A stretch of 64,000 nucleotides of DNA from Pseudomonas phage HPP-Temi, in sequence record PP968062.1; one strand, 5' to 3'. Position 1 is the first letter of the stretch, and each line of letters starts with the position of its first letter. Of this stretch, positions 3,873 to 55,150 are shown piece by piece. The notes beneath the pieces are model-generated. The model was not told the DNA's origin. It made no database searches and saw only the letters and a program-made list of their open reading frames with translations. Made by a program: the position numbers and the translations under genes.

Positions 3873-4228
3873 TTCTTGGCTCCAGGTTTAACATCAACAA
3901 CTTTCTTGAAAATAGCTTCGAATTCTTTCTTGTGGTGGAGTACGTAGCTAAGAATACGTTTCTTATCATCGCGGATGAATTCGATATAATCACCAGGACA
4001 AACAACCGATGGACTTTCGTTGGTACGGATCTTCAGGATACCGTGTTTACCATAATAGTCGTTACAGATGACACACCTATCAGAAGCAAGTTCCGAACCA
4101 TAGCTTGGATGTCGGCCTACAACATTCCCCTCGTTGATCCCGTTGACAGTGCGGTCCATGGGGTGGTCACCATTTTTAAACCACTGGTGCGCTTCTACTA
4201 AGGGTAAAATAGCTTGATAAAAAGGCAT
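3869..4228 (-). CDS. hypothetical protein
   Basis: The ORF track runs to 4270 with a GTG start. The ATG at 4228 has the best SD (ggaga + 6 nt). Confidence 0.55.
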   Translation of the reverse strand: MPFYQAILPLVEAHQWFKNGDHPMDRTVNGINEGNVVGRHPSYGSELASDRCVICNDYYGKHGILKIRTNESPSVVCPGDYIEFIRDDKKRILSYVLHHKKEFEAIFKKVVDVKPGAKK

Positions 4229-8464: not shown

Positions 8465-9211
8465 ATGTCAATTCTAACGGTTGCTATCACGATGAACTCT
8501 TTATTGCAGTTTGCGATTTCTCTCGAAGCGGAAATGGATGATCTCATCAATCAGTTGTTTGATGAAGTCAACAACCCTCGACAAGATCGCCCTTATGATG
8601 TTTGGGTAGACCCAACTCCAACTGAGAGTTTATCTACGCCAACTACAACAGAACTCATTAATAACATCGACGACATGTGGACGTATTACAATCGTTCAGG
8701 TCGTTCTAATGTTAAAGCTTACAAATATGGTCCGGATTGGATTCTCGTGGAATTCGGTGGCGAGGTATATTACCTTTACACGTTGAAGAGCATCACTGAG
8801 ATTCAGCTACAAGACATGAAATATTTTGCTGATGGTGGTTCGGGTTTGAACAGCTATATTAGTAAAGTAATTCGTGGTGGCTACGTAGCTAAGAACATCA
8901 ATAATGAAATCGTTATTACTCCCGGCTTTGAAGCTTATAAGAGTAATGTCCCTGCGATCTTCATCCATGTACGAAATAAAGAACAGGTAACAGACATGAC
9001 TACTCTCACTACTCTAACTGGTTATAAAGCAGCTATCGAAGCGGCTGGTCTTGATGGTCTTACTCCCGAAGCACGGAAGGTTATGCAAGTTGGTCTTGCT
9101 CAGATCGACAAAGAAACAGGCTTTACCAGCGTAGCTACTGAGAACTTCGAAGAGCGAATCGCAGTAGAACAAATCGATGAACGTATTGCGTTTATTAGTG
9201 CTGAAGAATAA
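8465..9211 (+). CDS. hypothetical protein
   Basis: 248-aa ORF with an ATG start. Confidence 0.65.
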   Translation: MSILTVAITMNSLLQFAISLEAEMDDLINQLFDEVNNPRQDRPYDVWVDPTPTESLSTPTTTELINNIDDMWTYYNRSGRSNVKAYKYGPDWILVEFGGEVYYLYTLKSITEIQLQDMKYFADGGSGLNSYISKVIRGGYVAKNINNEIVITPGFEAYKSNVPAIFIHVRNKEQVTDMTTLTTLTGYKAAIEAAGLDGLTPEARKVMQVGLAQIDKETGFTSVATENFEERIAVEQIDERIAFISAEE

Positions 9212-10482: not shown

Positions 10483-10558
10483 TCCGTGATAGCTCAGCAG
10501 GTAGAGCAGCGCACTGTTAATGCGTTTGTCCCATGTTCGATCCATGGTCGCGGAGCCA
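10483..10558 (+). tRNA. tRNA-Asn(GUU)
   Basis: TCCGTGATAGCTCAGCAGGTAGAGCA..., anticodon loop CTGTTAA, T-arm GTTCGATCC, 3' end GGAGCCA. Confidence 0.85.
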
Positions 10559-10717
10559 AACGTAAGATCGAGAAGCCCAAAGCTCGATCGAAAGGGACTG
10601 AGAGACTGCGGGTAGCTCAGTATAATCTAACGCCGCCCAATTCAAGAGAGTAGCTTCGGCTACTCTTTTATGCCGTGATGTTATACTCCAATATCGGAGT
10701 TATAGGAGATACTGAAA

Positions 10718-11374
10718 ATGTTGAATAGATCAAAAGGCCTGTTTTTAGATGATAGTAACCTTATGGAAGTTAAGGTTATAAATGCGGTAGGGCATAGAAC
10801 CCATGGTGGTCCTCATATAGAGGATGGATCAAAATATCATAGAACACTTGACTCGTATGAGGTGTTAGCTAAAGGTTATATGTTACGTGAGGGAGTACTG
10901 TCACTAGGTATAAATACATCTGCACACGATATTGAGTATGATGGATTTGGATTTATTAATGTATTTTTAATAGAAGATCCATTACCTCACGTTGAAGCAT
11001 ATAAAGGAAAACATGTTATTCTATCACCTGTACCTAAACAGTTGGCCGATAAAATAATTAAGGATGATAGAAATGTTGGACGATTAACAAATTTAGGAAT
11101 GTTAGATGATTTACTATACCAAATTGATACACGTGTAACTGAAGCATTAATCTATCTAACTGAAAACATGGCACCAGCCAGTCCCGAATATAGGGCAATT
11201 CCACCAGTTCTAACCTTTGACATTTTTGTAGATAATAAATATGTTTCGATATATGCGTTCGAATCAGCTATTAAAGAAAAGTATGGGGATACGATAACAT
11301 TCCGTATTATAGAACCTAATGAACCTCCGACACCAGGAGAGTATTTAAGGATTGAGTTAACTATAACGAAATAG
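10718..11374 (+). CDS. hypothetical protein in a low-GC island
   Basis: 218-aa ORF with an SD aggaga. Local GC is about 35% against about 47% elsewhere. Confidence 0.65.
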   Translation: MLNRSKGLFLDDSNLMEVKVINAVGHRTHGGPHIEDGSKYHRTLDSYEVLAKGYMLREGVLSLGINTSAHDIEYDGFGFINVFLIEDPLPHVEAYKGKHVILSPVPKQLADKIIKDDRNVGRLTNLGMLDDLLYQIDTRVTEALIYLTENMAPASPEYRAIPPVLTFDIFVDNKYVSIYAFESAIKEKYGDTITFRIIEPNEPPTPGEYLRIELTITK

Positions 11375-11442
11375 CAATATATCCTACAATTTATTCAAAC
11401 AGATTATCTTATGAACTAAATTGTTTACTTGAGAGCACACTC

Positions 11443-13290
11443 ATGTTTGAATTATTGTTATCAGCTGCTGGGCAAGCTAAGCCAGTGGAAATGATACCGT
11501 ATAACCAACCAACATTGTTTGGACAACTGGATGTTGGATTGGTTGGATCGGTACCCTATTTCAGAAATGGTTTATTAAATATTAATAGTGGTGCCCCATC
11601 AAGAAGTACAACTGATAATAACATCAGAATTTTTGATAGCACTGGTACTCAAATCAGTAAAACAGCTGTCCAAAATAGTTATTCACTTTGTCATACGGCG
11701 GGTGTATTTGTTCCAACATCCGATAGACTTTACATGTTCGGTGGGCGTCGTGGCGCTTCTTGGACACAAAACGTCATCACGATGATCAATCCAACTGTAC
11801 CTAATGATAATCTTATTAGTAATCAGTTGATGAATACATCCACTTATAACAGTATCGGCGATTGGGATGGCGGTGAATTTATTTGGGTACTGGAACATGC
11901 AACAGATCTTTTGATTCGCTATAGACTATCGAATAACGTTCGAGAAGTAATGAGTGCCCGGTGCCCTGTTATTCTATCTGGAGCGTATGCATTCTGCCAT
12001 AAAGGGAATTTCTATGTGATGGGTGGATGGAAGAACATCTCTGGCAGTTGGGTTGTTAACCAAGATGTTTATAAATACACCGTTGCTATTAATACATGGA
12101 CATTGTACCATTCATACTCCACAGACTACCACGGTGGTCATCAAGGTGGTAAGTACTGGAACGGGACTTTTAACTACACTATCGTTAAAGATGGTAAGAT
12201 TCATTGTGTTCGTTATTATATCGCCGAAAAACAATTTGTTGTTACTGAGACGAATATTGGTGAGGTCCATGGGACATCAGTCGCATTAAATCCATCGAAT
12301 GGCGATCTGTATCTGATCGGTGGTTCGGACATTGTTATCGATGACGCCCTTTTTAACACCCCTGAAAGAACGAAAGCAGCTATCTATAAATTCACTATTC
12401 CTATCCCTCCAAGTAAAACTGAATGGGAAGTAATGGCAAACGCACCTTATGATAGTCGAGGTTCCACTGCGGTTGTAATAGATGATGAACTGTATATGTT
12501 CGGCGGGTATACAAGTACAGGTGCATATAGAGGCGCGTTTAATAAATATAATCCTGAGACTAATACATGGAACGGTCTATTCACTGGATCTGGTTTAAGT
12601 CCGAGTGCCCGTGCTAATATGTGTGCAGCTGCAAATGATACACATATGTACCTATTCAGTGGATCTAACCAATCAGCAGATTTCTGGCGTTATAACGTAG
12701 CGACCAATGATTGGACGGCTATTACACCCGCTTCTCCGGGTTCATCTAATCCAGTATTTAGAACACAAGCTACGATGGTTCATTATAATGGTAAGCTCTA
12801 TTTGCTTGGTGGGAATAATGAATCTGACGCGTTGTTCGTCTACGATATTGCATCTAACATGTGGTCAAAACGAGTTGCGCAAGGTGGCATCCAACGATCT
12901 TCACATAGAGCGGTTGTTGTCGGCGAGTACATGTATGTCTATGGTGGATTTGTAAATGGTTCGCAATCCGGTCGATTTGATCGAATGAATATGAATACAT
13001 TTGCATGGGAGTCTCTACCGACTACCGATGGTCCCGGTGTTAACAGTTACGGTGTAATGCTGACTAACGATGAAGAAATTATATACATTGGCGGCGCTGA
13101 CGAAGACAAACGTAGAAAAGCCAATGCGTATAATATCCAATCGAGAACTTGGCGTAAACTACCAGAACTACCAAACGGTGTGAATGATGGCTATGGTGGA
13201 TTTATTAATGGCACAGCATATGTTGGCGGTGGTCTAACTGGAGCCAATAATAATACAATTACAGACAAGTTCTATCGTCTTGGAATTTAA
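11443..13290 (+). CDS. Kelch-repeat beta-propeller protein
   Basis: 615 aa with at least 8 repeats carrying the hhY(M/L)hGG signature (LYMFGG, FYVMGG, LYLIGG, LYMFGG, MYLFSG, LYLLGG, MYVYGG, IYIGG) and W/Y-rich spacing. Confidence 0.8.
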   Translation: MFELLLSAAGQAKPVEMIPYNQPTLFGQLDVGLVGSVPYFRNGLLNINSGAPSRSTTDNNIRIFDSTGTQISKTAVQNSYSLCHTAGVFVPTSDRLYMFGGRRGASWTQNVITMINPTVPNDNLISNQLMNTSTYNSIGDWDGGEFIWVLEHATDLLIRYRLSNNVREVMSARCPVILSGAYAFCHKGNFYVMGGWKNISGSWVVNQDVYKYTVAINTWTLYHSYSTDYHGGHQGGKYWNGTFNYTIVKDGKIHCVRYYIAEKQFVVTETNIGEVHGTSVALNPSNGDLYLIGGSDIVIDDALFNTPERTKAAIYKFTIPIPPSKTEWEVMANAPYDSRGSTAVVIDDELYMFGGYTSTGAYRGAFNKYNPETNTWNGLFTGSGLSPSARANMCAAANDTHMYLFSGSNQSADFWRYNVATNDWTAITPASPGSSNPVFRTQATMVHYNGKLYLLGGNNESDALFVYDIASNMWSKRVAQGGIQRSSHRAVVVGEYMYVYGGFVNGSQSGRFDRMNMNTFAWESLPTTDGPGVNSYGVMLTNDEEIIYIGGADEDKRRKANAYNIQSRTWRKLPELPNGVNDGYGGFINGTAYVGGGLTGANNNTITDKFYRLGI

Positions 13291-13334
13291 TAAATACTGG
13301 TATGGTAATACTATGTAAGACTATACCAGATTTC

Positions 13335-13423
13335 GGAGAGATAGGAAAATTGGTAACCCCAGCTGACTGTAAATCAGCCGTCCGTATCGGGCATTACTGG
13401 TTCGAGTCCAGTCCTCTCCACCA
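13335..13423 (+). tRNA. tRNA-Tyr(GUA), type II, CCA encoded
   Basis: Anticodon stem-loop AGCTGA-CTGTAAA-TCAGC, long variable arm, T-arm GGTTCGAGTCC, acceptor GGAGAG.../...CTCTCCACCA. Confidence 0.65.
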
Positions 13424-13435
13424 ATGCGTCATAGT

Positions 13436-13458
13436 GCTCTCCCTCCGGGGAGAGCTTT
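13436..13458 (+). terminator. hairpin gctctccctccggggagagc followed by TTTATG (the ATG is the start codon of the next gene)
   Basis: GC stem-loop seen in sequence. Confidence 0.5.
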
Positions 13459-14022
13459 ATGCCAATTAACACAAAAGGAAATAACATGTCAGCATTAAGT
13501 TTGATTCAACGATGGGCGCCGGAGGCACCGAGGATTCTCCTCCATGCTAATGACAAGCCCTCCACTACAAAGATGGTTCTCGATAAAGATCACGGGGAAT
13601 ACATGAAGTTTAACGACTTCCTGATCCTCCTTAAGAACGGTATCTTTATTGAAGCTACGAAAGATCTTCATGAAACGCTGCTAGATGGTAGAGCACAACA
13701 AGACCTCATGGCTCGACTGGGTCGTATGGGTTATGAAGACTTCGATCAAGTCATGCGTGTATTGGAAGAACAACGTAGTACTGTTCTCAAAGAGAAAGAG
13801 TATGAAATCTGGCAAGAGGGCCATCAAGCATCTGGTGATTCCAGTAAAGCTCATCTCGTTGGTAAGGCTACAGGTTACTCTTTCCTCGATGCTGTAGACA
13901 ACTACATGAAGACAGCCAGTAAAGATACGAAAGACTGTTTCCGTGCTGAACTGGATGCAGCCTATATCTGGGGTTGCCGTCTGTATGACAATGAAATCGA
14001 TGCACGTAAATCTTTCGGGTGA
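13459..14022 (+). CDS. hypothetical protein
   Basis: 187-aa ORF. Confidence 0.65.
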   Translation: MPINTKGNNMSALSLIQRWAPEAPRILLHANDKPSTTKMVLDKDHGEYMKFNDFLILLKNGIFIEATKDLHETLLDGRAQQDLMARLGRMGYEDFDQVMRVLEEQRSTVLKEKEYEIWQEGHQASGDSSKAHLVGKATGYSFLDAVDNYMKTASKDTKDCFRAELDAAYIWGCRLYDNEIDARKSFG

Positions 14023-14025
14023 TCT

Positions 14026-14460
14026 ATGATTCCTAAACTTTCTGTTGCTGATATCCGTAGTAAACAAACTCCTGAACAACTGGCCAATAACCGGGAGAAA
14101 ATCCTGGAAGCAGTCGAGCGTTACCATGCTGCTCAACGAGAGCTTGAAACCTACTGTGAACGTAATGGGTTAGAAGTACCTATCCTAGTCTGTAACTCCA
14201 TGGCAGTTAACAAAGGTATTCCTTCTCGTCTCTCTATGCACGTAATGGTTCAACTCGGTATTGGTGATTATACCAGTCGAATGAACATGAACGCTATCCA
14301 ACTCAGTGATATGATCGAACGTGATCTAACCGATCTTTGGAACAAGCATTATGAGAATGAGTGGATTGATTGGAAACCTTCCGTTAATACATTCCTCTGC
14401 AATGGCCAATATATCATCCAAGTCTTCTTGGGTCGCGAAAAGATCATGGAGTTGAAATGA
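14026..14460 (+). CDS. hypothetical protein
   Basis: 144-aa ORF starting 3 nt after the previous stop. Confidence 0.65.
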   Translation: MIPKLSVADIRSKQTPEQLANNREKILEAVERYHAAQRELETYCERNGLEVPILVCNSMAVNKGIPSRLSMHVMVQLGIGDYTSRMNMNAIQLSDMIERDLTDLWNKHYENEWIDWKPSVNTFLCNGQYIIQVFLGREKIMELK

Positions 14461-15633: not shown

Positions 15634-15857
15634 GCTCCTACCATTTACTAGATTCTTGTGTAATACTATACGAGAATATTCAATGACTCTGCATGTTCTC
15701 CGGGTATATCCCATAATTGCTATTCTACTCCTCCCTTAAAAGGATAGCATTTAAAGGTTGCGATGACTAATCGTAATGCAGGGTGATTAATAGTGCCGAC
15801 TATAGCGAGGGTCGGGTCTACACTTAACTGGTGGATTCCAGTACTCAATTCAAATTC

Positions 15858-15886
15858 AGCCGTTATAGCTCAGCAGGTAGAGCAAC
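15858..15886 (+). pseudogene. tRNA 5'-half fragment (paralog of tRNA-Asn acceptor and D-arm) truncated by the HNH gene
   Basis: GCCGTTATAGCTCAGCAGGTAGAGCA is nearly identical to the 5' half of the tRNA-Asn at 10483. No anticodon or T-arm follows; instead the HNH ORF begins. Confidence 0.55.
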
Positions 15887-15890
15887 TAAA

Positions 15891-16298
15891 ATGAGAATAG
15901 ATCTTGATTTTCCGTTTAACCAAGATTGGACTCATGGATATCTTAACAGTCAAACAACAGGTCGTCGGATTGTACATCTCCATGATGGTTCAGGCAAAAC
16001 GAAGACAGTTAGTTATGCAAGATATCTAGTCTCTGTGGAGCTAGAACGTCATCTTGAGAAAGATGAAGAAGTGGATCACGTTGACGATAATTTCGAAAAC
16101 GATAAACTACTTAATCTCCAAATTTTAACACCCCGGCAGAACAGAGCAAAGCAAGGTCCTCTAAATAGAGTAGACGTTGTACATGGTTCTTTAACAGCGT
16201 ACCGTTATTGTAAATGTGATATTTGCAAACTCGGTAAAAGTCTGTGGTCTAAGGGTGACAAAATTGGATACGAAAAAAATCTGGCCAACGTAGCATAG
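15891..16298 (+). CDS. HNH homing endonuclease
   Basis: HNH core EVDHVDDNFENDKLLNLQILTPRQNRAK. The gene sits inside the tRNA cluster, and its 3' end overlaps the next tRNA by about 15 nt. Confidence 0.75.
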   Translation: MRIDLDFPFNQDWTHGYLNSQTTGRRIVHLHDGSGKTKTVSYARYLVSVELERHLEKDEEVDHVDDNFENDKLLNLQILTPRQNRAKQGPLNRVDVVHGSLTAYRYCKCDICKLGKSLWSKGDKIGYEKNLANVA

Positions 16299-16370
16299 CG
16301 GTCGACTGCAATGGATTTGTAATCCATCGACTAACGTCCATCGTGAGTTCGAATCTCACCGTTGGCTCCA
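16284..16370 (+). tRNA. tRNA with anticodon UGU (Thr) but an unusually long variable arm, CCA encoded
   Basis: Acceptor GCCAACG/CGTTGGC, anticodon stem ATGGA/TCCAT with loop TTTGTAA, T-arm GTGAG-TTCGAAT-CTCAC, roughly 15-nt variable region. Confidence 0.5.
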
Positions 16371-16376
16371 GTAATA

Positions 16377-16461
16377 CCCAGTGTGGCAGAGTGGTTTAAT
16401 GCACCAGCGAAAAGCTGGCGACAAGTCCTACGAGTCCATAGGTTCGAATCCTATCACTGGC
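16377..16461 (+). tRNA. tRNA-like gene with Ser-type D-loop but a 5-nt anticodon loop (atypical or pseudo-tRNA)
   Basis: D-arm GGCAGAGTGGTTTAATGC, T-arm ATAGG-TTCGAAT-CCTAT and 3' CACTGGCCCA are recognisable. The anticodon arm CCAGC-GAAAA-GCTGG has only 5 loop nt. Confidence 0.35.
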
Positions 16462-16609
16462 CCAGTTTTTGAAATTAGTTGTAAGATGGTAAGGTACAGC
16501 CCGAATCACATTAAAGGAGCCGCCCGGTGATTCATGATGGGTGCATGGGTACAAGTCGAGTGATAAAACGAGTCGCCTTTCACTCCTGCTAATTTCAAAA
16601 AGCTATTCA

Positions 16610-53775: not shown

Positions 53776-53800
53776 GCCCTCTCCCGAAGGAGAGGGCATA
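53776..53800. terminator. hairpin gccctctcccgaaggagagggc (identical to the copy at 56662; near-identical copy at 21681)
   Basis: GC stem-loop seen in sequence. Confidence 0.65.
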
Positions 53801-53804
53801 TGTC

Positions 53805-54254
53805 TTATTTCTTTTCTGCCGGGTTGGGTACAGTAAACGGTTTAGGATCAAAACTCTTACTCATCCTGCAAGCAGAGAAAAGCCTTTCTGCGGCACGATC
53901 GGTAGCGGTCATCCCATTAAAGCCGTTATGGCCAAACTGTTTCCTATACCGCGTGATATCGACATGGAAGTTAACGATCTTGTCTTTGATATACCACAGC
54001 GCAGTAAGATTCGCAGTGATTTCGTACTCCATGGTTTTTGGCATATCTTTTGCTTTGTTCCATAGAGTCCAGTATGCCTTCTGAACGGCAATAGAAGCCT
54101 GATCGGAATTGGCGTTTTTCTCTTCGATCTGATTACCTACAACAATACTGGTTTGATATACCAGCGCGCAAACGTCATCGTTCAACGCGAGGTAATTATT
54201 CGCATTAACAGCGAAAGAGAAAAACATAAGAACGAAAGCAGCTACGTATTTCAT
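53805..54254 (-). CDS. secreted protein (signal peptide)
   Basis: 149 aa; N-terminus MKYVAAFVLMFFSFAVNA. Confidence 0.55.
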   Translation of the reverse strand: MKYVAAFVLMFFSFAVNANNYLALNDDVCALVYQTSIVVGNQIEEKNANSDQASIAVQKAYWTLWNKAKDMPKTMEYEITANLTALWYIKDKIVNFHVDITRYRKQFGHNGFNGMTATDRAAERLFSACRMSKSFDPKPFTVPNPAEKK

Positions 54255-54268
54255 GGGATCTCCTTAAT

Positions 54269-54724
54269 TTAGAGGGCGCGCCCATTGATGGGACGAAGAT
54301 ATTCAAATTTGGTACCGATGGCTTTCTTACAATCGAGGTAAGTGGCACCACCGATAAAATCAGGATACTGACTGAGATTACCTTTTAGGTTAAGCCAATT
54401 AAGGCGGTAGGTTTTACTATAAAGGTTATTATGCAGGGTTGGTGAATAAACTGCAATGTAGTGGAATATTGCCCAACTAGTCGGATCTTTTGTTTCGTTG
54501 TTCAAAAGAACGGTAACGACCTGCTGTGAGAGATCACGAGCACTTACATTGCTTTCCATGTTGTCAATAGCGAGAGCAGTTGCGAAGATCTCAACTTTTT
54601 CACAAAGCTCTACATCGACCACACGGGTATCCCGCATGAAACCTTTGGGTGGTGGTGCAGCATTGGCTACACTCAACACCGCCAGCATTACAAAACCTAC
54701 AATAAGACGAGCGAACATATTCAT
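54269..54724 (-). CDS. secreted protein (signal peptide)
   Basis: 151 aa; N-terminus MNMFARLIVGFVMLAVLSVANA. Confidence 0.55.
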   Translation of the reverse strand: MNMFARLIVGFVMLAVLSVANAAPPPKGFMRDTRVVDVELCEKVEIFATALAIDNMESNVSARDLSQQVVTVLLNNETKDPTSWAIFHYIAVYSPTLHNNLYSKTYRLNWLNLKGNLSQYPDFIGGATYLDCKKAIGTKFEYLRPINGRAL

Positions 54725-55077
54725 TTACTCCCTGCGAATTTGTAACCCACGTTAGCTTCACAACTTTCGATTATTGCCTGGACAATATCTTTATCAGGAT
54801 AACTCTTAGATATATTGCGACGAATGTCCATGACCAGAACTTGAGCATAGACCGCACCTGTACGAATGTCTTCGTTATCGGTGTTACCCATGCGCTTATT
54901 CAGGTAGGACATCGCTTGAAACTGATCTCCCCCGTTCCGAAAAATCTTGATAACATCACGGGACATGGACACAGCGATCTTACAGGATTTCTCGGTGATC
55001 AGTTGGTCTTTCTCTGCGAACGAAGGTTGGCAGCCAGTGAACAGCATGATCAGAAAAGCGAGTACGTAACGTTTCAT
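54721..55077 (-). CDS. lipoprotein
   Basis: 118 aa; N-terminus MKRYVLAFLIMLFTGC with lipobox LFTGC. Confidence 0.55.
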   Translation of the reverse strand: MKRYVLAFLIMLFTGCQPSFAEKDQLITEKSCKIAVSMSRDVIKIFRNGGDQFQAMSYLNKRMGNTDNEDIRTGAVYAQVLVMDIRRNISKSYPDKDIVQAIIESCEANVGYKFAGSK

Positions 55078-55099
55078 CTTCTTAACCTCTTTGGTGTGT

Positions 55100-55150
55100 A
55101 TATCAAGTTTGTAATATAGCCTTTAAAAGGCTTTAAATGTTAAATTGAAA
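55100..55150 (-). promoter_or_regulatory. conserved promoter-like element with perfect palindrome GCCTTTAAAAGGC
   Basis: caagtttgtaatatagcctttaaaaggctttaaatgt. Confidence 0.45.

What the first reader, a model, noticed from the sequence alone, without database searches (positions are those of the whole stretch)
10559..13334. Low-GC island between tRNA-Asn and tRNA-Tyr encoding a 615-aa Kelch-repeat beta-propeller protein
GC drops to about 35% across 10.7-13.3 kb, against about 47% elsewhere. The island encodes a 218-aa protein and a large Kelch propeller with at least 8 hhY(M/L)hGG repeats. Insertion between tRNA genes and the compositional shift suggest horizontal acquisition. Kelch propellers are protein- or glycan-binding scaffolds and are uncommon in phages. 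It could be a host-interaction or adhesin module.
Basis: seen in the sequence. Interest (0 to 1): 0.55.

Follow-up and report, generated by a model that had tools for sequence, protein, structure and literature searches.

The report
Swappable Kelch-propeller phage adsorption gene
The flagged region holds a giant Pseudomonas phage's double-length version of phiKZ gp298, a Kelch-propeller virion protein recently reported to be needed for attachment to some host strains, and this copy was recently swapped between related phages, so it is a known kind of host-range gene and not a foreign island.

Summary
The window comes from a phiKZ-like jumbo Pseudomonas aeruginosa phage of the PS119XW/PA1C/BRkr/HHBS36_1 group.

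**What was confirmed**
- tRNA-Asn, tRNA-Tyr, the 218-aa ORF and the 615-aa Kelch ORF are all real.
- The GC dip is real but overstated. The region is 39.3% against 46.0% for the window. About 35% holds only for the 218-aa gene. The Kelch gene is 41.2%.

**What the 615-aa protein is**
- It is the phage's only gp298-family gene, in the same tRNA-cluster slot as phiKZ gp298 and PhiPA3 gp360.
- Its N-half is a divergent Kelch propeller that matches gp298 over gp298's whole length. Its C-half is a canonical six-bladed Kelch propeller.
- A 2025 preprint reports gp298 as a low-abundance virion protein needed for adsorption to some wild isolates.

**Evidence for exchange**
- The slot is ancestral but its content is exchangeable. 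The Kelch gene plus tRNA-Tyr is 98-100% identical to BRkr and HHBS36_1 in an ~80% background.
- The same protein is only 22-30% identical to the PS119XW and PA1C alleles, whose flanking genes are 76-96% identical.
- Conserved leader and downstream elements bracket the gene.

**The 218-aa gene** is a true insertion and an orphan.

**Verdict:** a new member of a known kind, of moderate interest.

The parts
10483..10558 (+). tRNA-Asn (GTT), the upstream landmark. It is 80% identical to the phiKZ tRNA-Asn that precedes gp298.
   Evidence: ARAGORN; Rfam 61.5 bits; blastn to phiKZ L004 2878-2956.
10644..10672 (+). Conserved hairpin AAGAGAGTAGC-TTCG-GCTACTCTTTT, followed by and overlapping TATG (10669-10672). 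It looks like a terminator and is shared with phiKZ, PhiPA3, BRkr and PA1C. It is the upstream half of the ancestral tRNA-Asn-to-gp298 spacer.
   Evidence: RNA fold -17.2 kcal/mol, z -3.4, 0 of 200 shuffles as stable. Columns invariant in 5 phages. 94% identical to phiKZ L004 2958-2990. The simple terminator scan did not call it.
10718..11374 (+). 218-aa orphan gene inserted into the ancestral spacer. It has the lowest GC (34.6%) and the lowest GC3 (21.9%) in the window. Function unknown. It is dispensable for the Kelch allele, because HHBS36_1 carries the same Kelch allele without it.
   Evidence: No Pfam, PHROG, NCBIfam or PADLOC hit. Only BRkr (95% aa) and PA1C (49% aa) carry it among 50,697 phage records. 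One representative among 1.84 billion proteins. 25 synonymous against 11 non-synonymous codon changes versus BRkr. The single-sequence AF2 model is unusable, pLDDT 35.
11401..11463 (+). Conserved leader element. It holds TATG at 11410-11413 (the late-promoter motif of phiKZ-type non-virion RNA polymerase, with G as the putative start site), GAGAG at 11431-11435 (Shine-Dalgarno-like), the ATG at 11443 and the first 7 codons (MFELLLS). It marks the 5' edge of the exchangeable cassette.
   Evidence: 92% identical to phiKZ L004 3001-3060 and 79-89% identical to PS119XW, BRkr and PA1C copies, including the copies upstream of the short paralogue. The TATG motif comes from PMC4666361. The leader occurs once in the window. 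Promoter function is inferred.
11443..12408 (+). Kelch protein N-domain (aa 1-322). It is the gp298-homologous, strongly diverged Kelch propeller, with three recognisable blade motifs.
   Evidence: BLASTP to phiKZ gp298, aa 1-319 against 1-329, E 3e-10. phrog_19623 'virion structural protein', E 6e-13, profile positions 1-314 of 335. hhalign against a Kelch profile gives 99.3%, E 1.8e-20, over 282 columns. The PDB profile search hits KLHL20 and Keap1 Kelch domains at E 1e-10. Pfam Kelch hits are below cut-off. AF2 pLDDT is below 50.
12409..13290 (+). Kelch protein C-domain (aa 323-615) plus the stop codon. It is a canonical six-bladed Kelch beta-propeller and is absent from the short gp298 form.
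   Evidence: Pfam hits across aa 321-604. AF2 pLDDT is about 90 or higher across aa 330-615. Foldseek matches the LZTR1, KLHDC2, NS1-BP and Keap1 Kelch domains with target TM-score 0.8 and E 1e-18.
13291..13334 (+). Conserved 3' element just after the stop codon, with TATG at 13312-13315, 20 nt upstream of tRNA-Tyr. The 3' flank starts here; similarity to PA1C and PS119XW resumes at 13289-13292.
   Evidence: Alignment with PA1C, PS119XW and phiKZ; blastn. The homologous phiKZ TATG ends at record position 270596, next to the published 5' end (270595) of the ncRNA 3'UTR_PHIKZ298.
13335..13423 (+). tRNA-Tyr (GTA). It travelled with the Kelch gene inside the near-identical tract.
   Evidence: 99-100% identical to BRkr and HHBS36_1 up to position 13459.
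10635..13459 (.). Recently exchanged tract: 94-100% identical to BRkr over 10635-13459 and 97-100% identical to HHBS36_1 over 11460-13459 (the similarity starts at 11401). Identity falls to 70-80% at 13460.
   Evidence: 100-nt sliding identity. Across 95 aligned 500-nt windows against HHBS36_1 the median is 80% (IQR 76-85%), and the only windows at 95% or more are the four in this tract and one at 54.0 kb.

Best explanation
The 615-aa ORF is this jumbo phage's only gp298-family gene.

**What the protein is.** It is a tandem double Kelch beta-propeller.
- The N-terminal propeller (aa 1-322) matches phiKZ gp298 over gp298's whole length, including the identical first seven residues MFELLLS.
- The C-terminal propeller (aa 323-615) is an extra, canonical six-bladed Kelch domain. 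The long forms of PhiPA3 (gp360), PS119XW and PA1C have it too.

**How it most likely works.**
- Inferred: it is made late, from a TATG-type promoter of the phage's own non-virion RNA polymerase.
- By analogy with phiKZ gp298: it is built into the virion in low copy number and acts as an accessory adsorption or host-range factor. Its propeller faces would bind a surface structure that varies between P. aeruginosa strains, most likely a glycan.

**How the locus evolves.**
- Shown: the gene sits in a fixed slot of the tRNA cluster. The slot is bracketed by a conserved leader that includes the first 7 codons, and by a conserved element just after the stop codon.
- Shown: the content of the slot exists as several deeply diverged alleles. 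The allele here, together with tRNA-Tyr, was recently exchanged with the BRkr and HHBS36_1 lineages.
- Inferred: the exchange happened by homologous recombination, with its 5' edge at the conserved hairpin (BRkr) or leader (HHBS36_1) and its 3' edge just beyond tRNA-Tyr, at about 13459.

**The neighbouring gene.** The 218-aa low-GC gene is a separate orphan inserted into the ancestral spacer. The Kelch allele occurs without it in HHBS36_1.
For: **Family and synteny**
- The tRNA cluster has the same gene order in phiKZ, PhiPA3, PA1C, PS119XW, BRkr and HHBS36_1.
- BLASTP to gp298 covers the full length, E 3e-10. phrog_19623 matches at E 6e-13.
- The leader is 92% identical to phiKZ.

**Fold**
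- Pfam Kelch at E 2e-40.
- AF2 C-domain pLDDT is above 90, and Foldseek gives target TM-score 0.8 to solved Kelch domains.
- N-domain against a Kelch profile by hhalign: 99.3%.

**Function by analogy**
- phiKZ gp298 is reported as a low-abundance virion protein. An orf298::Tn mutant fails to adsorb to isolates PA1032 and Env201 but adsorbs normally to PAO1 (PMC12676376).

**Exchange**
- Flanking proteins are 76-96% identical to all four relatives. The Kelch protein is 99.5% identical to BRkr and HHBS36_1 and 22-30% identical to PS119XW and PA1C.
- The tract is 98-100% identical by nucleotide, with a sharp drop at 13460. The genome-wide median against HHBS36_1 is 80%.

**The gene is live**
- 11-12 synonymous against 3 non-synonymous codon differences.

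**Promoter motif**
- TATG sits 30-33 nt upstream of the ATG in every gp298-type and long-form copy examined. TATG is the phiKZ late-promoter motif (PMC4666361).
Against: - No experiment exists for any long-form allele. Virion presence of this protein is untested.
- The 2026 cryo-EM atlas of phiKZ places 40 proteins and does not mention gp298, so 'tail-associated' rests only on the adsorption phenotype.
- The window N-domain is only 21-31% identical to the other alleles, and its AF2 model is unreliable (pLDDT below 50).
- TATG occurs about 2.6 times per kb by chance, so the promoter call is weak on its own.
- The ligand is unknown.
- The closest solved folds are eukaryotic protein-binding Kelch domains, which does not favour a glycan over a protein ligand.
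Confidence: 0.62

Rival explanations
1. The protein is an enzyme, not a binder. It would be a NanM/YjhT-type sugar mutarotase or a galactose-oxidase-like propeller that modifies or processes a host surface sugar, such as a nonulosonic acid, to give access to the receptor.
For: Pfam NANM (PF24996) scores 61.7 bits against a cut-off of 45. [quoted passage not shown] One phiKZ-like record annotates gp298 as nanM (H102).
Against: NCBIfam mutarotase models score 56-75 bits against curated cut-offs of 243-416, which is generic Kelch cross-matching. The NANM hit covers only about 90 of 350 profile positions. The top structural matches are binding domains, not NanM or galactose oxidase. Catalytic residues were not checked.
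Confidence: 0.1
2. The protein is an intracellular effector. Like the Kelch proteins of poxviruses and giant viruses, it would bind a host or phage protein inside the cell, for take-over or anti-defence, and would not be a virion adsorption factor.
For: The best solved-structure matches are substrate-receptor Kelch domains: LZTR1, KLHDC2/3/10 and Keap1. The gene lies among non-essential accessory genes far from tail genes, as the preprint also notes for orf298.
Against: There is no BTB/BACK or other adaptor domain and no PADLOC hit. The homologue gp298 is reported in virions with an adsorption-specific phenotype. Paralogues in relatives are annotated as virion structural proteins. The pattern of deeply diverged, swappable alleles is typical of receptor-binding proteins.
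Confidence: 0.12
3. This is the first reader's reading: a foreign genomic island from outside this phage group, integrated between tRNA genes.
For: The region is among the lowest-GC stretches of the window, and its two genes are among the three lowest in GC3. tRNA genes flank it. The 218-aa gene really is an insertion with almost no relatives anywhere.
Against: The Kelch slot is occupied by a homologue in every relative and in two other genera. There is no integrase and there are no flanking direct repeats. All gp298-family alleles are low in GC3 (24-39%), so low GC belongs to the family and not to a new arrival. The nearest relatives outside these phages are only generic Kelch proteins at about 27% identity over about 35% of the length.
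Confidence: 0.08

Closest known systems
phiKZ gp298 (PHIKZ298; phrog_19623), the 335-aa Kelch-type low-abundance virion protein reported as conditionally essential for adsorption to wild P. aeruginosa isolates (bioRxiv 10.1101/2025.11.23.690004)
   Same: It occupies the same slot in the tRNA cluster downstream of tRNA-Asn and has the same leader (92% nucleotide identity). The N-terminus MFELLLS is identical. Homology runs across the whole of gp298 (aa 1-319 against 1-329). The N-domain has a Kelch-type fold signature.
   Different: Identity is only about 24%. The window protein carries a second, canonical six-bladed Kelch propeller of about 290 aa. It is followed by tRNA-Tyr, where phiKZ has the ncRNA/gp297 region. 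It is preceded by an inserted orphan gene. No functional data exist for this form.
Long-form gp298 homologues: PhiPA3 gp360 (619 aa), PS119XW QEM42111 (631 aa), PA1C QBX32537 (618 aa), and BRkr RVBP21_2560 and HHBS36_1 CDS0016 (615 aa)
   Same: They have the same two-propeller architecture, the same slot, and the same MFE(L/I)LL start. The BRkr and HHBS36_1 copies are the same allele (99.5% aa identity).
   Different: The other alleles are 22-30% identical although the surrounding genes are 76-96% identical. They are discrete allele types, not gradual variants.
phiKZ gp131-135 tail-fibre paralogues, which share an N-terminal anchor and have varied C-termini; the gp131 C-domain is a seven-bladed beta-propeller (Sycheva 2012; PMC13250141)
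   Same: The logic is the same: a family of virion paralogues with a common N-terminal segment and variable propeller domains proposed to contact the host.
   Different: There is no sequence relationship. The gp131-135 N-termini do not carry MFExLL. gp131 is a 7-bladed non-Kelch propeller that has been placed on the baseplate. gp298 has not been placed in the virion.
NanM/YjhT N-acetylneuraminate mutarotase (six-bladed Kelch enzyme)
   Same: The fold class is the same. There are weak profile matches.
   Different: Scores fall far below the curated family cut-offs. Nothing supports catalysis.
Receptor-binding-protein cassette exchange in tailed phages, that is tail-fibre or tailspike modules swapped at conserved junctions
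   Same: Conserved junction sequences bracket deeply diverged alleles. A near-identical allele is shared between otherwise diverged genomes.
   Different: The module is a Kelch propeller and not a fibre or tailspike. It lies in a tRNA/accessory region and not in the tail gene cluster.

Membership tests
phiKZ gp298 family (phrog_19623) | Sequence homology over the whole gp298 length | tested here: met
   BLASTP E 3e-10, aa 1-319 against 1-329. PHROG profile E 6e-13, positions 1-314 of 335.
phiKZ gp298 family (phrog_19623) | Syntenic slot in the tRNA cluster, with the conserved leader and the MFE(L/I)LL N-terminus | tested here: met
   The leader is 92% identical to phiKZ.
phiKZ gp298 family (phrog_19623) | Present in purified virions | not testable with these tools
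   The only evidence is annotation or literature for homologues.
phiKZ gp298 family (phrog_19623) | Needed for adsorption to a subset of host strains | not testable with these tools
   Reported for phiKZ orf298::Tn only.
Kelch beta-propeller (Pfam Kelch families) | Profile matches above curated cut-offs | tested here: met
   For the C-domain, PF24681 scores 139 bits against 50, and Kelch_6, Kelch_1, Kelch_2, Kelch_3 and Kelch_4 are all above cut-off. The N-domain alone is below cut-off but scores 99.3% by hhalign against a Kelch profile.
Kelch beta-propeller (Pfam Kelch families) | Six-bladed propeller fold | tested here: met
   For the C-domain, AF2 pLDDT is above 90 and the Foldseek target TM-score is about 0.8 to LZTR1, KLHDC2 and NS1-BP. 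The N-domain fold is inconclusive (pLDDT below 50).
NanM/YjhT mutarotase | Score above the curated family cut-off | tested here: not met
   TIGR03547 56 bits against 256; NF010730 67 against 416; TIGR03548 75 against 243.
NanM/YjhT mutarotase | Catalytic residues conserved | not tested
   No structure-based alignment to NanM was made.
tRNA-associated integrative island | Integrase or recombinase gene in the island | tested here: not met
   There are only two sizeable ORFs on the coding strand. One is Kelch and the other has no family match.
tRNA-associated integrative island | Flanking direct repeats (att-like, duplicating a tRNA 3' end) | tested here: not met
   The repeat finder gives only short internal repeats, some from the Kelch blades.
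tRNA-associated integrative island | Empty site in close relatives | tested here: not met
   The Kelch slot is occupied in all relatives. The 218-aa gene alone does have empty sites, in phiKZ, PS119XW and HHBS36_1.
BTB-Kelch substrate adaptors (poxvirus or eukaryotic type) | BTB/BACK domain N-terminal to the Kelch repeats | tested here: not met
   There is no BTB or BACK hit at E <= 1.
Canonical tail-fibre or tailspike families | Profile match to a known fibre, spike or anchor domain | tested here: not met
   The only hit is Phage_T4_gp36 at E 0.036, 14.5 bits against a cut-off of 26. No PHROG tail category matched.

The most novel reading that the evidence does not exclude
The gp298 slot may be a dedicated plug-in site for host-range modules in phiKZ-like jumbo phages.
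- The Kelch virion paralogues seen here all begin with the same MFExLL heptapeptide: the 312-, 335-, 522- and 615-631-aa proteins. A 315-aa protein in HHBS36_1 has the same start but was not tested for Kelch repeats. The heptapeptide would then be a shared signal for docking onto the virion.
- A conserved promoter/leader and a conserved downstream promoter bracket the gp298-type slot. They would serve as recombination anchors.
- Co-infecting phages, even of different genera, could then swap whole propeller modules, perhaps helped by the HNH endonucleases in the same tRNA region.
- The short paralogue of BRkr, PA1C and phiHQ fits this: it is 90-98% identical to phiKZ gp298, against 42-68% for the two neighbouring proteins that could be compared between the window and phiKZ.
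Probability: 0.3. Interest if true: 0.55.

Novelty: new member of a known kind. Interest (0 to 1): 0.36.

Why it matters
phiKZ-like jumbo phages are therapy candidates, and their host-range determinants are poorly mapped. The only functional clue for this gene family is one transposon phenotype in phiKZ.

This analysis shows three things:
- The same slot holds deeply diverged, double-propeller alleles.
- Those alleles move between lineages as a unit.
- The slot has conserved junctions.

That points to a concrete and engineerable host-range cassette. It gives a direct experiment: swap alleles at the conserved junctions, then score adsorption on strain panels.

It also corrects a tempting misreading, namely that low GC plus flanking tRNAs means a foreign island. 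The locus is ancestral. Only the allele, and the small orphan gene next to it, are mobile.

Tried and rejected
**Searches and models that did not help**
1. A word-indexed protein search with the N-half alone returned nothing, not even the identical BRkr protein. It is therefore uninformative and is not evidence of absence.
2. The same tool run with the family alignment returned only generic Kelch proteins and no phage homologues. No deep alignment for the N-domain could be handed to AlphaFold.
3. AF2 of the full protein gave a confident C-domain only. The N-domain has pLDDT below 50.
4. AF2 of the 218-aa protein from a single sequence gave pLDDT 35, which is unusable, so no fold search was run on it.
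5. An IMG/VR scan with the N-domain alignment found only PhiPA3 itself.
6. A long degenerate leader pattern found nothing in the window, not even the leader itself, because I wrote its spacing wrongly. The 14-nt core is unique in the window.
7. The simple terminator scan did not call the conserved hairpin. Folding shows that it is stable.

**Ideas rejected**
8. A tRNA split by an HNH intron at 15.8-16.4 kb. Rfam finds an intact tRNA at 16284-16367 and no group I intron.
9. NanM membership.
10. An anti-defence or defence role (PADLOC).
11. An integrative island.
12. MFExLL as a general tail-fibre anchor. The 100 kb of phiKZ that I read, which includes gp131-135 and gp145/146, has no MF[ED]x[LIVM][LIVM] match at all, and those seven N-termini are unrelated to it. 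The other 180 kb of phiKZ was not scanned.
Full report
**1. Source and observation**

Megablast places the window in the phiKZ-like jumbo Pseudomonas aeruginosa phages of the PS119XW/PA1C/BRkr/HHBS36_1 group, which have genomes of about 300 kb. No record is identical to it.

- tRNA-Asn (10483-10558) and tRNA-Tyr (13335-13423) are confirmed by ARAGORN and by Rfam.
- Between them lie ORFs of 218 aa (10718-11374) and 615 aa (11443-13290).
- The 615-aa protein matches Pfam Kelch families far above their cut-offs.
- It has nine blade motifs of the hxhxG[GS] type, three in the N-half and six in the C-half.

The GC dip is real. At 39.3% against 46.0%, the region is one of the two lowest-GC 2.8-kb stretches of the window, about 3 sd below the mean.

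| Feature | GC | GC3 | Rank among 71 genes by GC3 |
|---|---|---|---|
| 218-aa gene | 34.6% | 21.9% | lowest |
| Kelch gene | 41.2% | 32.6% | third lowest |
| Neighbourhood 8-22 kb | 42.5% | mean 37% | not ranked |

**2. What the Kelch protein is**

The locus is syntenic with the tRNA region of phiKZ, where tRNA-Asn is followed by PHIKZ298. It is also syntenic with PhiPA3 gp360, PA1C, PS119XW, BRkr and HHBS36_1.

The N-half (aa 1-322):
- It aligns with the whole of phiKZ gp298: aa 1-319 against 1-329, 24% identity, E 3e-10, with the identical start MFELLLS.
- It matches phrog_19623, 'virion structural protein'.
- Its Pfam Kelch hits are sub-threshold.
- A profile of the phage N-domains aligns end to end with a Kelch profile: hhalign 99.3%, E 1.8e-20, 282 columns.
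- The same profile finds the KLHL20 and Keap1 Kelch domains in the PDB at E 1e-10.

The C-half (aa 323-615):
- It folds with pLDDT above 90 into a propeller.
- The model superposes on solved six-bladed Kelch domains (LZTR1, KLHDC2, NS1-BP, Keap1) with target TM-score about 0.8.

The protein is therefore a tandem double Kelch propeller. The first propeller is the gp298 homologue. The window holds no other member of the family.

NanM membership fails the curated cut-offs by a wide margin. There is no BTB domain and no defence-system match.

**3. Function by analogy**

A 2025 preprint (PMC12676376) reports the following for phiKZ:
- orf298 tolerates transposon insertions on PAO1.
- An orf298::Tn mutant fails to plaque on, and to adsorb to, two wild isolates.
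- gp298 is a low-abundance virion protein with a Kelch domain.

The 2026 cryo-EM atlas of phiKZ does not mention gp298, so its position on the particle is unknown.

The step from gp298 to this long allele is inference. It rests on homology, on synteny and on the evolutionary pattern described next.

**4. The slot is ancestral and its content is exchanged**

Amino-acid identity of window proteins to four relatives:

| Window protein | BRkr | HHBS36_1 | PS119XW | PA1C |
|---|---|---|---|---|
| Well-aligned flanking proteins (range) | 77-81% | 76-96% | 76-96% | 76-82% |
| Kelch protein | 99.5% | 99.5% | about 30% | 22-24% |

Three small neighbours fall below that range in every relative where they match. 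Two lie just upstream of tRNA-Asn (108 aa at 68-69%, 110 aa at 44-45%), and the 144-aa ORF at 14026-14460 aligns over only 39% of its length at 59-62%.

- At the nucleotide level, identity to BRkr and HHBS36_1 is 98-100% from 11460 to 13459. It drops to about 70-80% exactly at 13460, where the next gene starts.
- Towards BRkr the tract also covers the 218-aa gene, starting at 10635.
- Towards HHBS36_1 it starts at 11401.
- Over 58 kb compared with HHBS36_1, the median identity of 500-nt windows is 80% (IQR 76-85%). Only five windows reach 95%. Four of them are this tract.
- Within the allele, changes are mostly synonymous: 11-12 synonymous against 3 non-synonymous codons. The gene is therefore under purifying selection.

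There are at least four deeply diverged long-form allele types: window/BRkr/HHBS36_1, PS119XW, PA1C/phiLBG22/phiHQ, and PhiPA3. They are 21-42% identical per domain.

**5. Conserved junctions**

The 5' junction:
- Positions 11401-11463 are conserved. They are 92% identical to phiKZ and 79-89% identical to the PS119XW, BRkr and PA1C copies, including the copies in front of the short 335-aa paralogue of BRkr and PA1C.
- The element holds TATG 30-33 nt upstream of the ATG. TATG is the late-promoter motif of the phiKZ non-virion RNA polymerase, with G as the start site (PMC4666361).
- It also holds a GAGAG ribosome-binding motif and the first seven codons.

The 3' junction:
- Similarity to PA1C and PS119XW resumes at 13289-13292, right at the stop codon.
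- An element of about 35 nt there is also conserved in phiKZ.
- In phiKZ, the TATG of that element ends at record position 270596. That is next to the published 5' end (270595) of the ncRNA '3'UTR_PHIKZ298'.
- In the window, the same element lies 20 nt upstream of tRNA-Tyr.

These junctions are plausible anchors for homologous recombination. In BRkr the leader occurs twice as a direct repeat. A deletion between the two copies would yield the HHBS36_1/PS119XW arrangement. This is an inference.

**6. The 218-aa gene**

- In phiKZ the spacer between tRNA-Asn and gp298 is contiguous. In the window its two halves lie on either side of the 218-aa gene: 10640-10672 (94% identical) and 11404-11462 (92% identical). 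The gene is therefore an insertion.
- The upstream half carries a conserved, stable hairpin followed by a T-run.
- The protein has no family match.
- It is found only in BRkr (95% aa) and PA1C (49% aa) among 50,697 phage records.
- It has one representative among 1.84 billion clustered proteins.
- HHBS36_1 carries the same Kelch allele without it, so it is not an obligatory partner of the Kelch protein.
- Its function remains unknown. The single-sequence AF2 model is unusable.

**7. Why low GC**

- All gp298-family genes are low in GC3 (24-39%), including phiKZ gp298 itself.
- The short paralogue of BRkr, PA1C and phiHQ is 90-98% identical to phiKZ gp298. The two neighbouring proteins that could be compared between the window and phiKZ are 42-68% identical.
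- Inference: low GC is a property of a gene family that circulates between these genera. It is not the signature of a recent arrival from outside the phages.
- There is no integrase and there are no att-like repeats.

**8. A family signature**

- In the relatives, every ORF that begins MFExLL in the stretches read is one of these: the 335-aa gp298 form, the 615-631-aa long form, the 312-aa and 522-aa proteins annotated as virion structural, and a 315-aa ORF of HHBS36_1.
- The 312-aa and 522-aa proteins match Pfam Kelch families.
- The motif never occurs inside an ORF in these loci.
- The window lacks the 335-, 312- and 522-aa paralogues.
- The phiKZ fibre paralogues gp131-135 do not carry the motif.
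- Whether MFExLL is a docking signal, a strand that closes the propeller, or only shared ancestry is open.

**9. Verdict**

The host-interaction guess is good. The acquisition is an allele exchange at an ancestral slot and not an island insertion.
- The object is a new member, in long double-propeller form, of a family whose function has only just been described. The same allele is already in GenBank, unannotated.
- The cassette architecture and the evidence for exchange are the added value.

Noticed in passing
L001 2084/4810/8627/9874; L003 151/3141/6968/8215; L005 2200(-)/6240/10056/11303; window 11443: Every ORF in these loci that starts with the heptapeptide MFExLL is one of these: a gp298-type protein (335 aa), a long form (615-631 aa), a 312-aa or 522-aa Kelch protein annotated as virion structural, or a 315-aa ORF of HHBS36_1 that was not tested for Kelch repeats. 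The motif never occurs inside an ORF. It could be a virion-docking or propeller-closing signal.
   Followed up: partly
window 15831-16298: An HNH-like ORF (Pfam HNH_3 at E 1.3e-3, below cut-off; GC3 28.7%, second lowest of 71 genes) lies between tRNA-Leu and tRNA-Thr. Relatives carry the 522-aa Kelch virion protein between these two tRNAs. The 312-aa Kelch gene that relatives carry just upstream of tRNA-Leu is also missing from the window. Positions 15831-15887 match the 5' part of PA1C's tRNA-Thr. The window's own tRNA-Thr (16284-16367) is intact and no group I intron was found.
   Followed up: partly
window 13291-13334 and phiKZ L004 4080-4110: A conserved TATG element lies just after the gp298-family stop codon. 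In phiKZ it coincides with the published 5' end of the ncRNA 3'UTR_PHIKZ298. In the window it precedes tRNA-Tyr by 20 nt. The phiKZ ncRNA thus occupies the position that tRNA-Tyr holds in this group.
   Followed up: partly
BRkr L001 2084-3091; PA1C L003 151-1158; phiHQ (H75): The short gp298 paralogue of the PA1C-group phages is 90-98% identical in amino acids to phiKZ gp298. The two neighbouring proteins that could be compared between the window and phiKZ are 42-68% identical. This suggests recent transfer between genera. The window, HHBS36_1 and PS119XW lack this paralogue.
   Followed up: partly
window 53800-55100 (- strand): This is the only other tract at 95% or more identity to HHBS36_1 (96% at 54.0-54.5 kb, 90% at 54.5-55.0 kb). 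It encodes three small proteins with signal-peptide or lipobox-like N-termini (149, 151 and 118 aa). It may be a second exchanged module.
   Followed up: partly
window 16377-16463: ARAGORN calls a tRNA-Phe with the unusual anticodon AAA. Rfam scores it at 39.8 bits, the weakest of the seven tRNAs.
   Followed up: no
BRkr L001 ~3960-4000; PA1C L003 ~2290-2335: A sequence resembling a tRNA 3' end (GGTTCGAGTCCAGGTCGCGGAGCCA) follows the gp296-like gene and directly precedes the conserved hairpin. The gp296-like protein carries an HNH-like motif (HHLDENKLN) seen by eye and was not scanned against Pfam. This may be a remnant of endonuclease-associated rearrangement in the tRNA cluster.
   Followed up: no
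window 8465-9211: The 248-aa ORF matches Pfam phiKZ_IP (internal head proteins) just above cut-off, 27.9 bits against 27. HHBS36_1 annotates its homologue as a virion structural protein.
   Followed up: no
KEN49 PP456877 29288-31449 (H54, H68): A few phiKZ-like phages (KEN49, pPA-N1803-4At.2, Wadjak 2) carry a second gp298-like gene in tandem, immediately upstream of gp298. It is 30% identical to the window N-domain over 353 aa.
   Followed up: no
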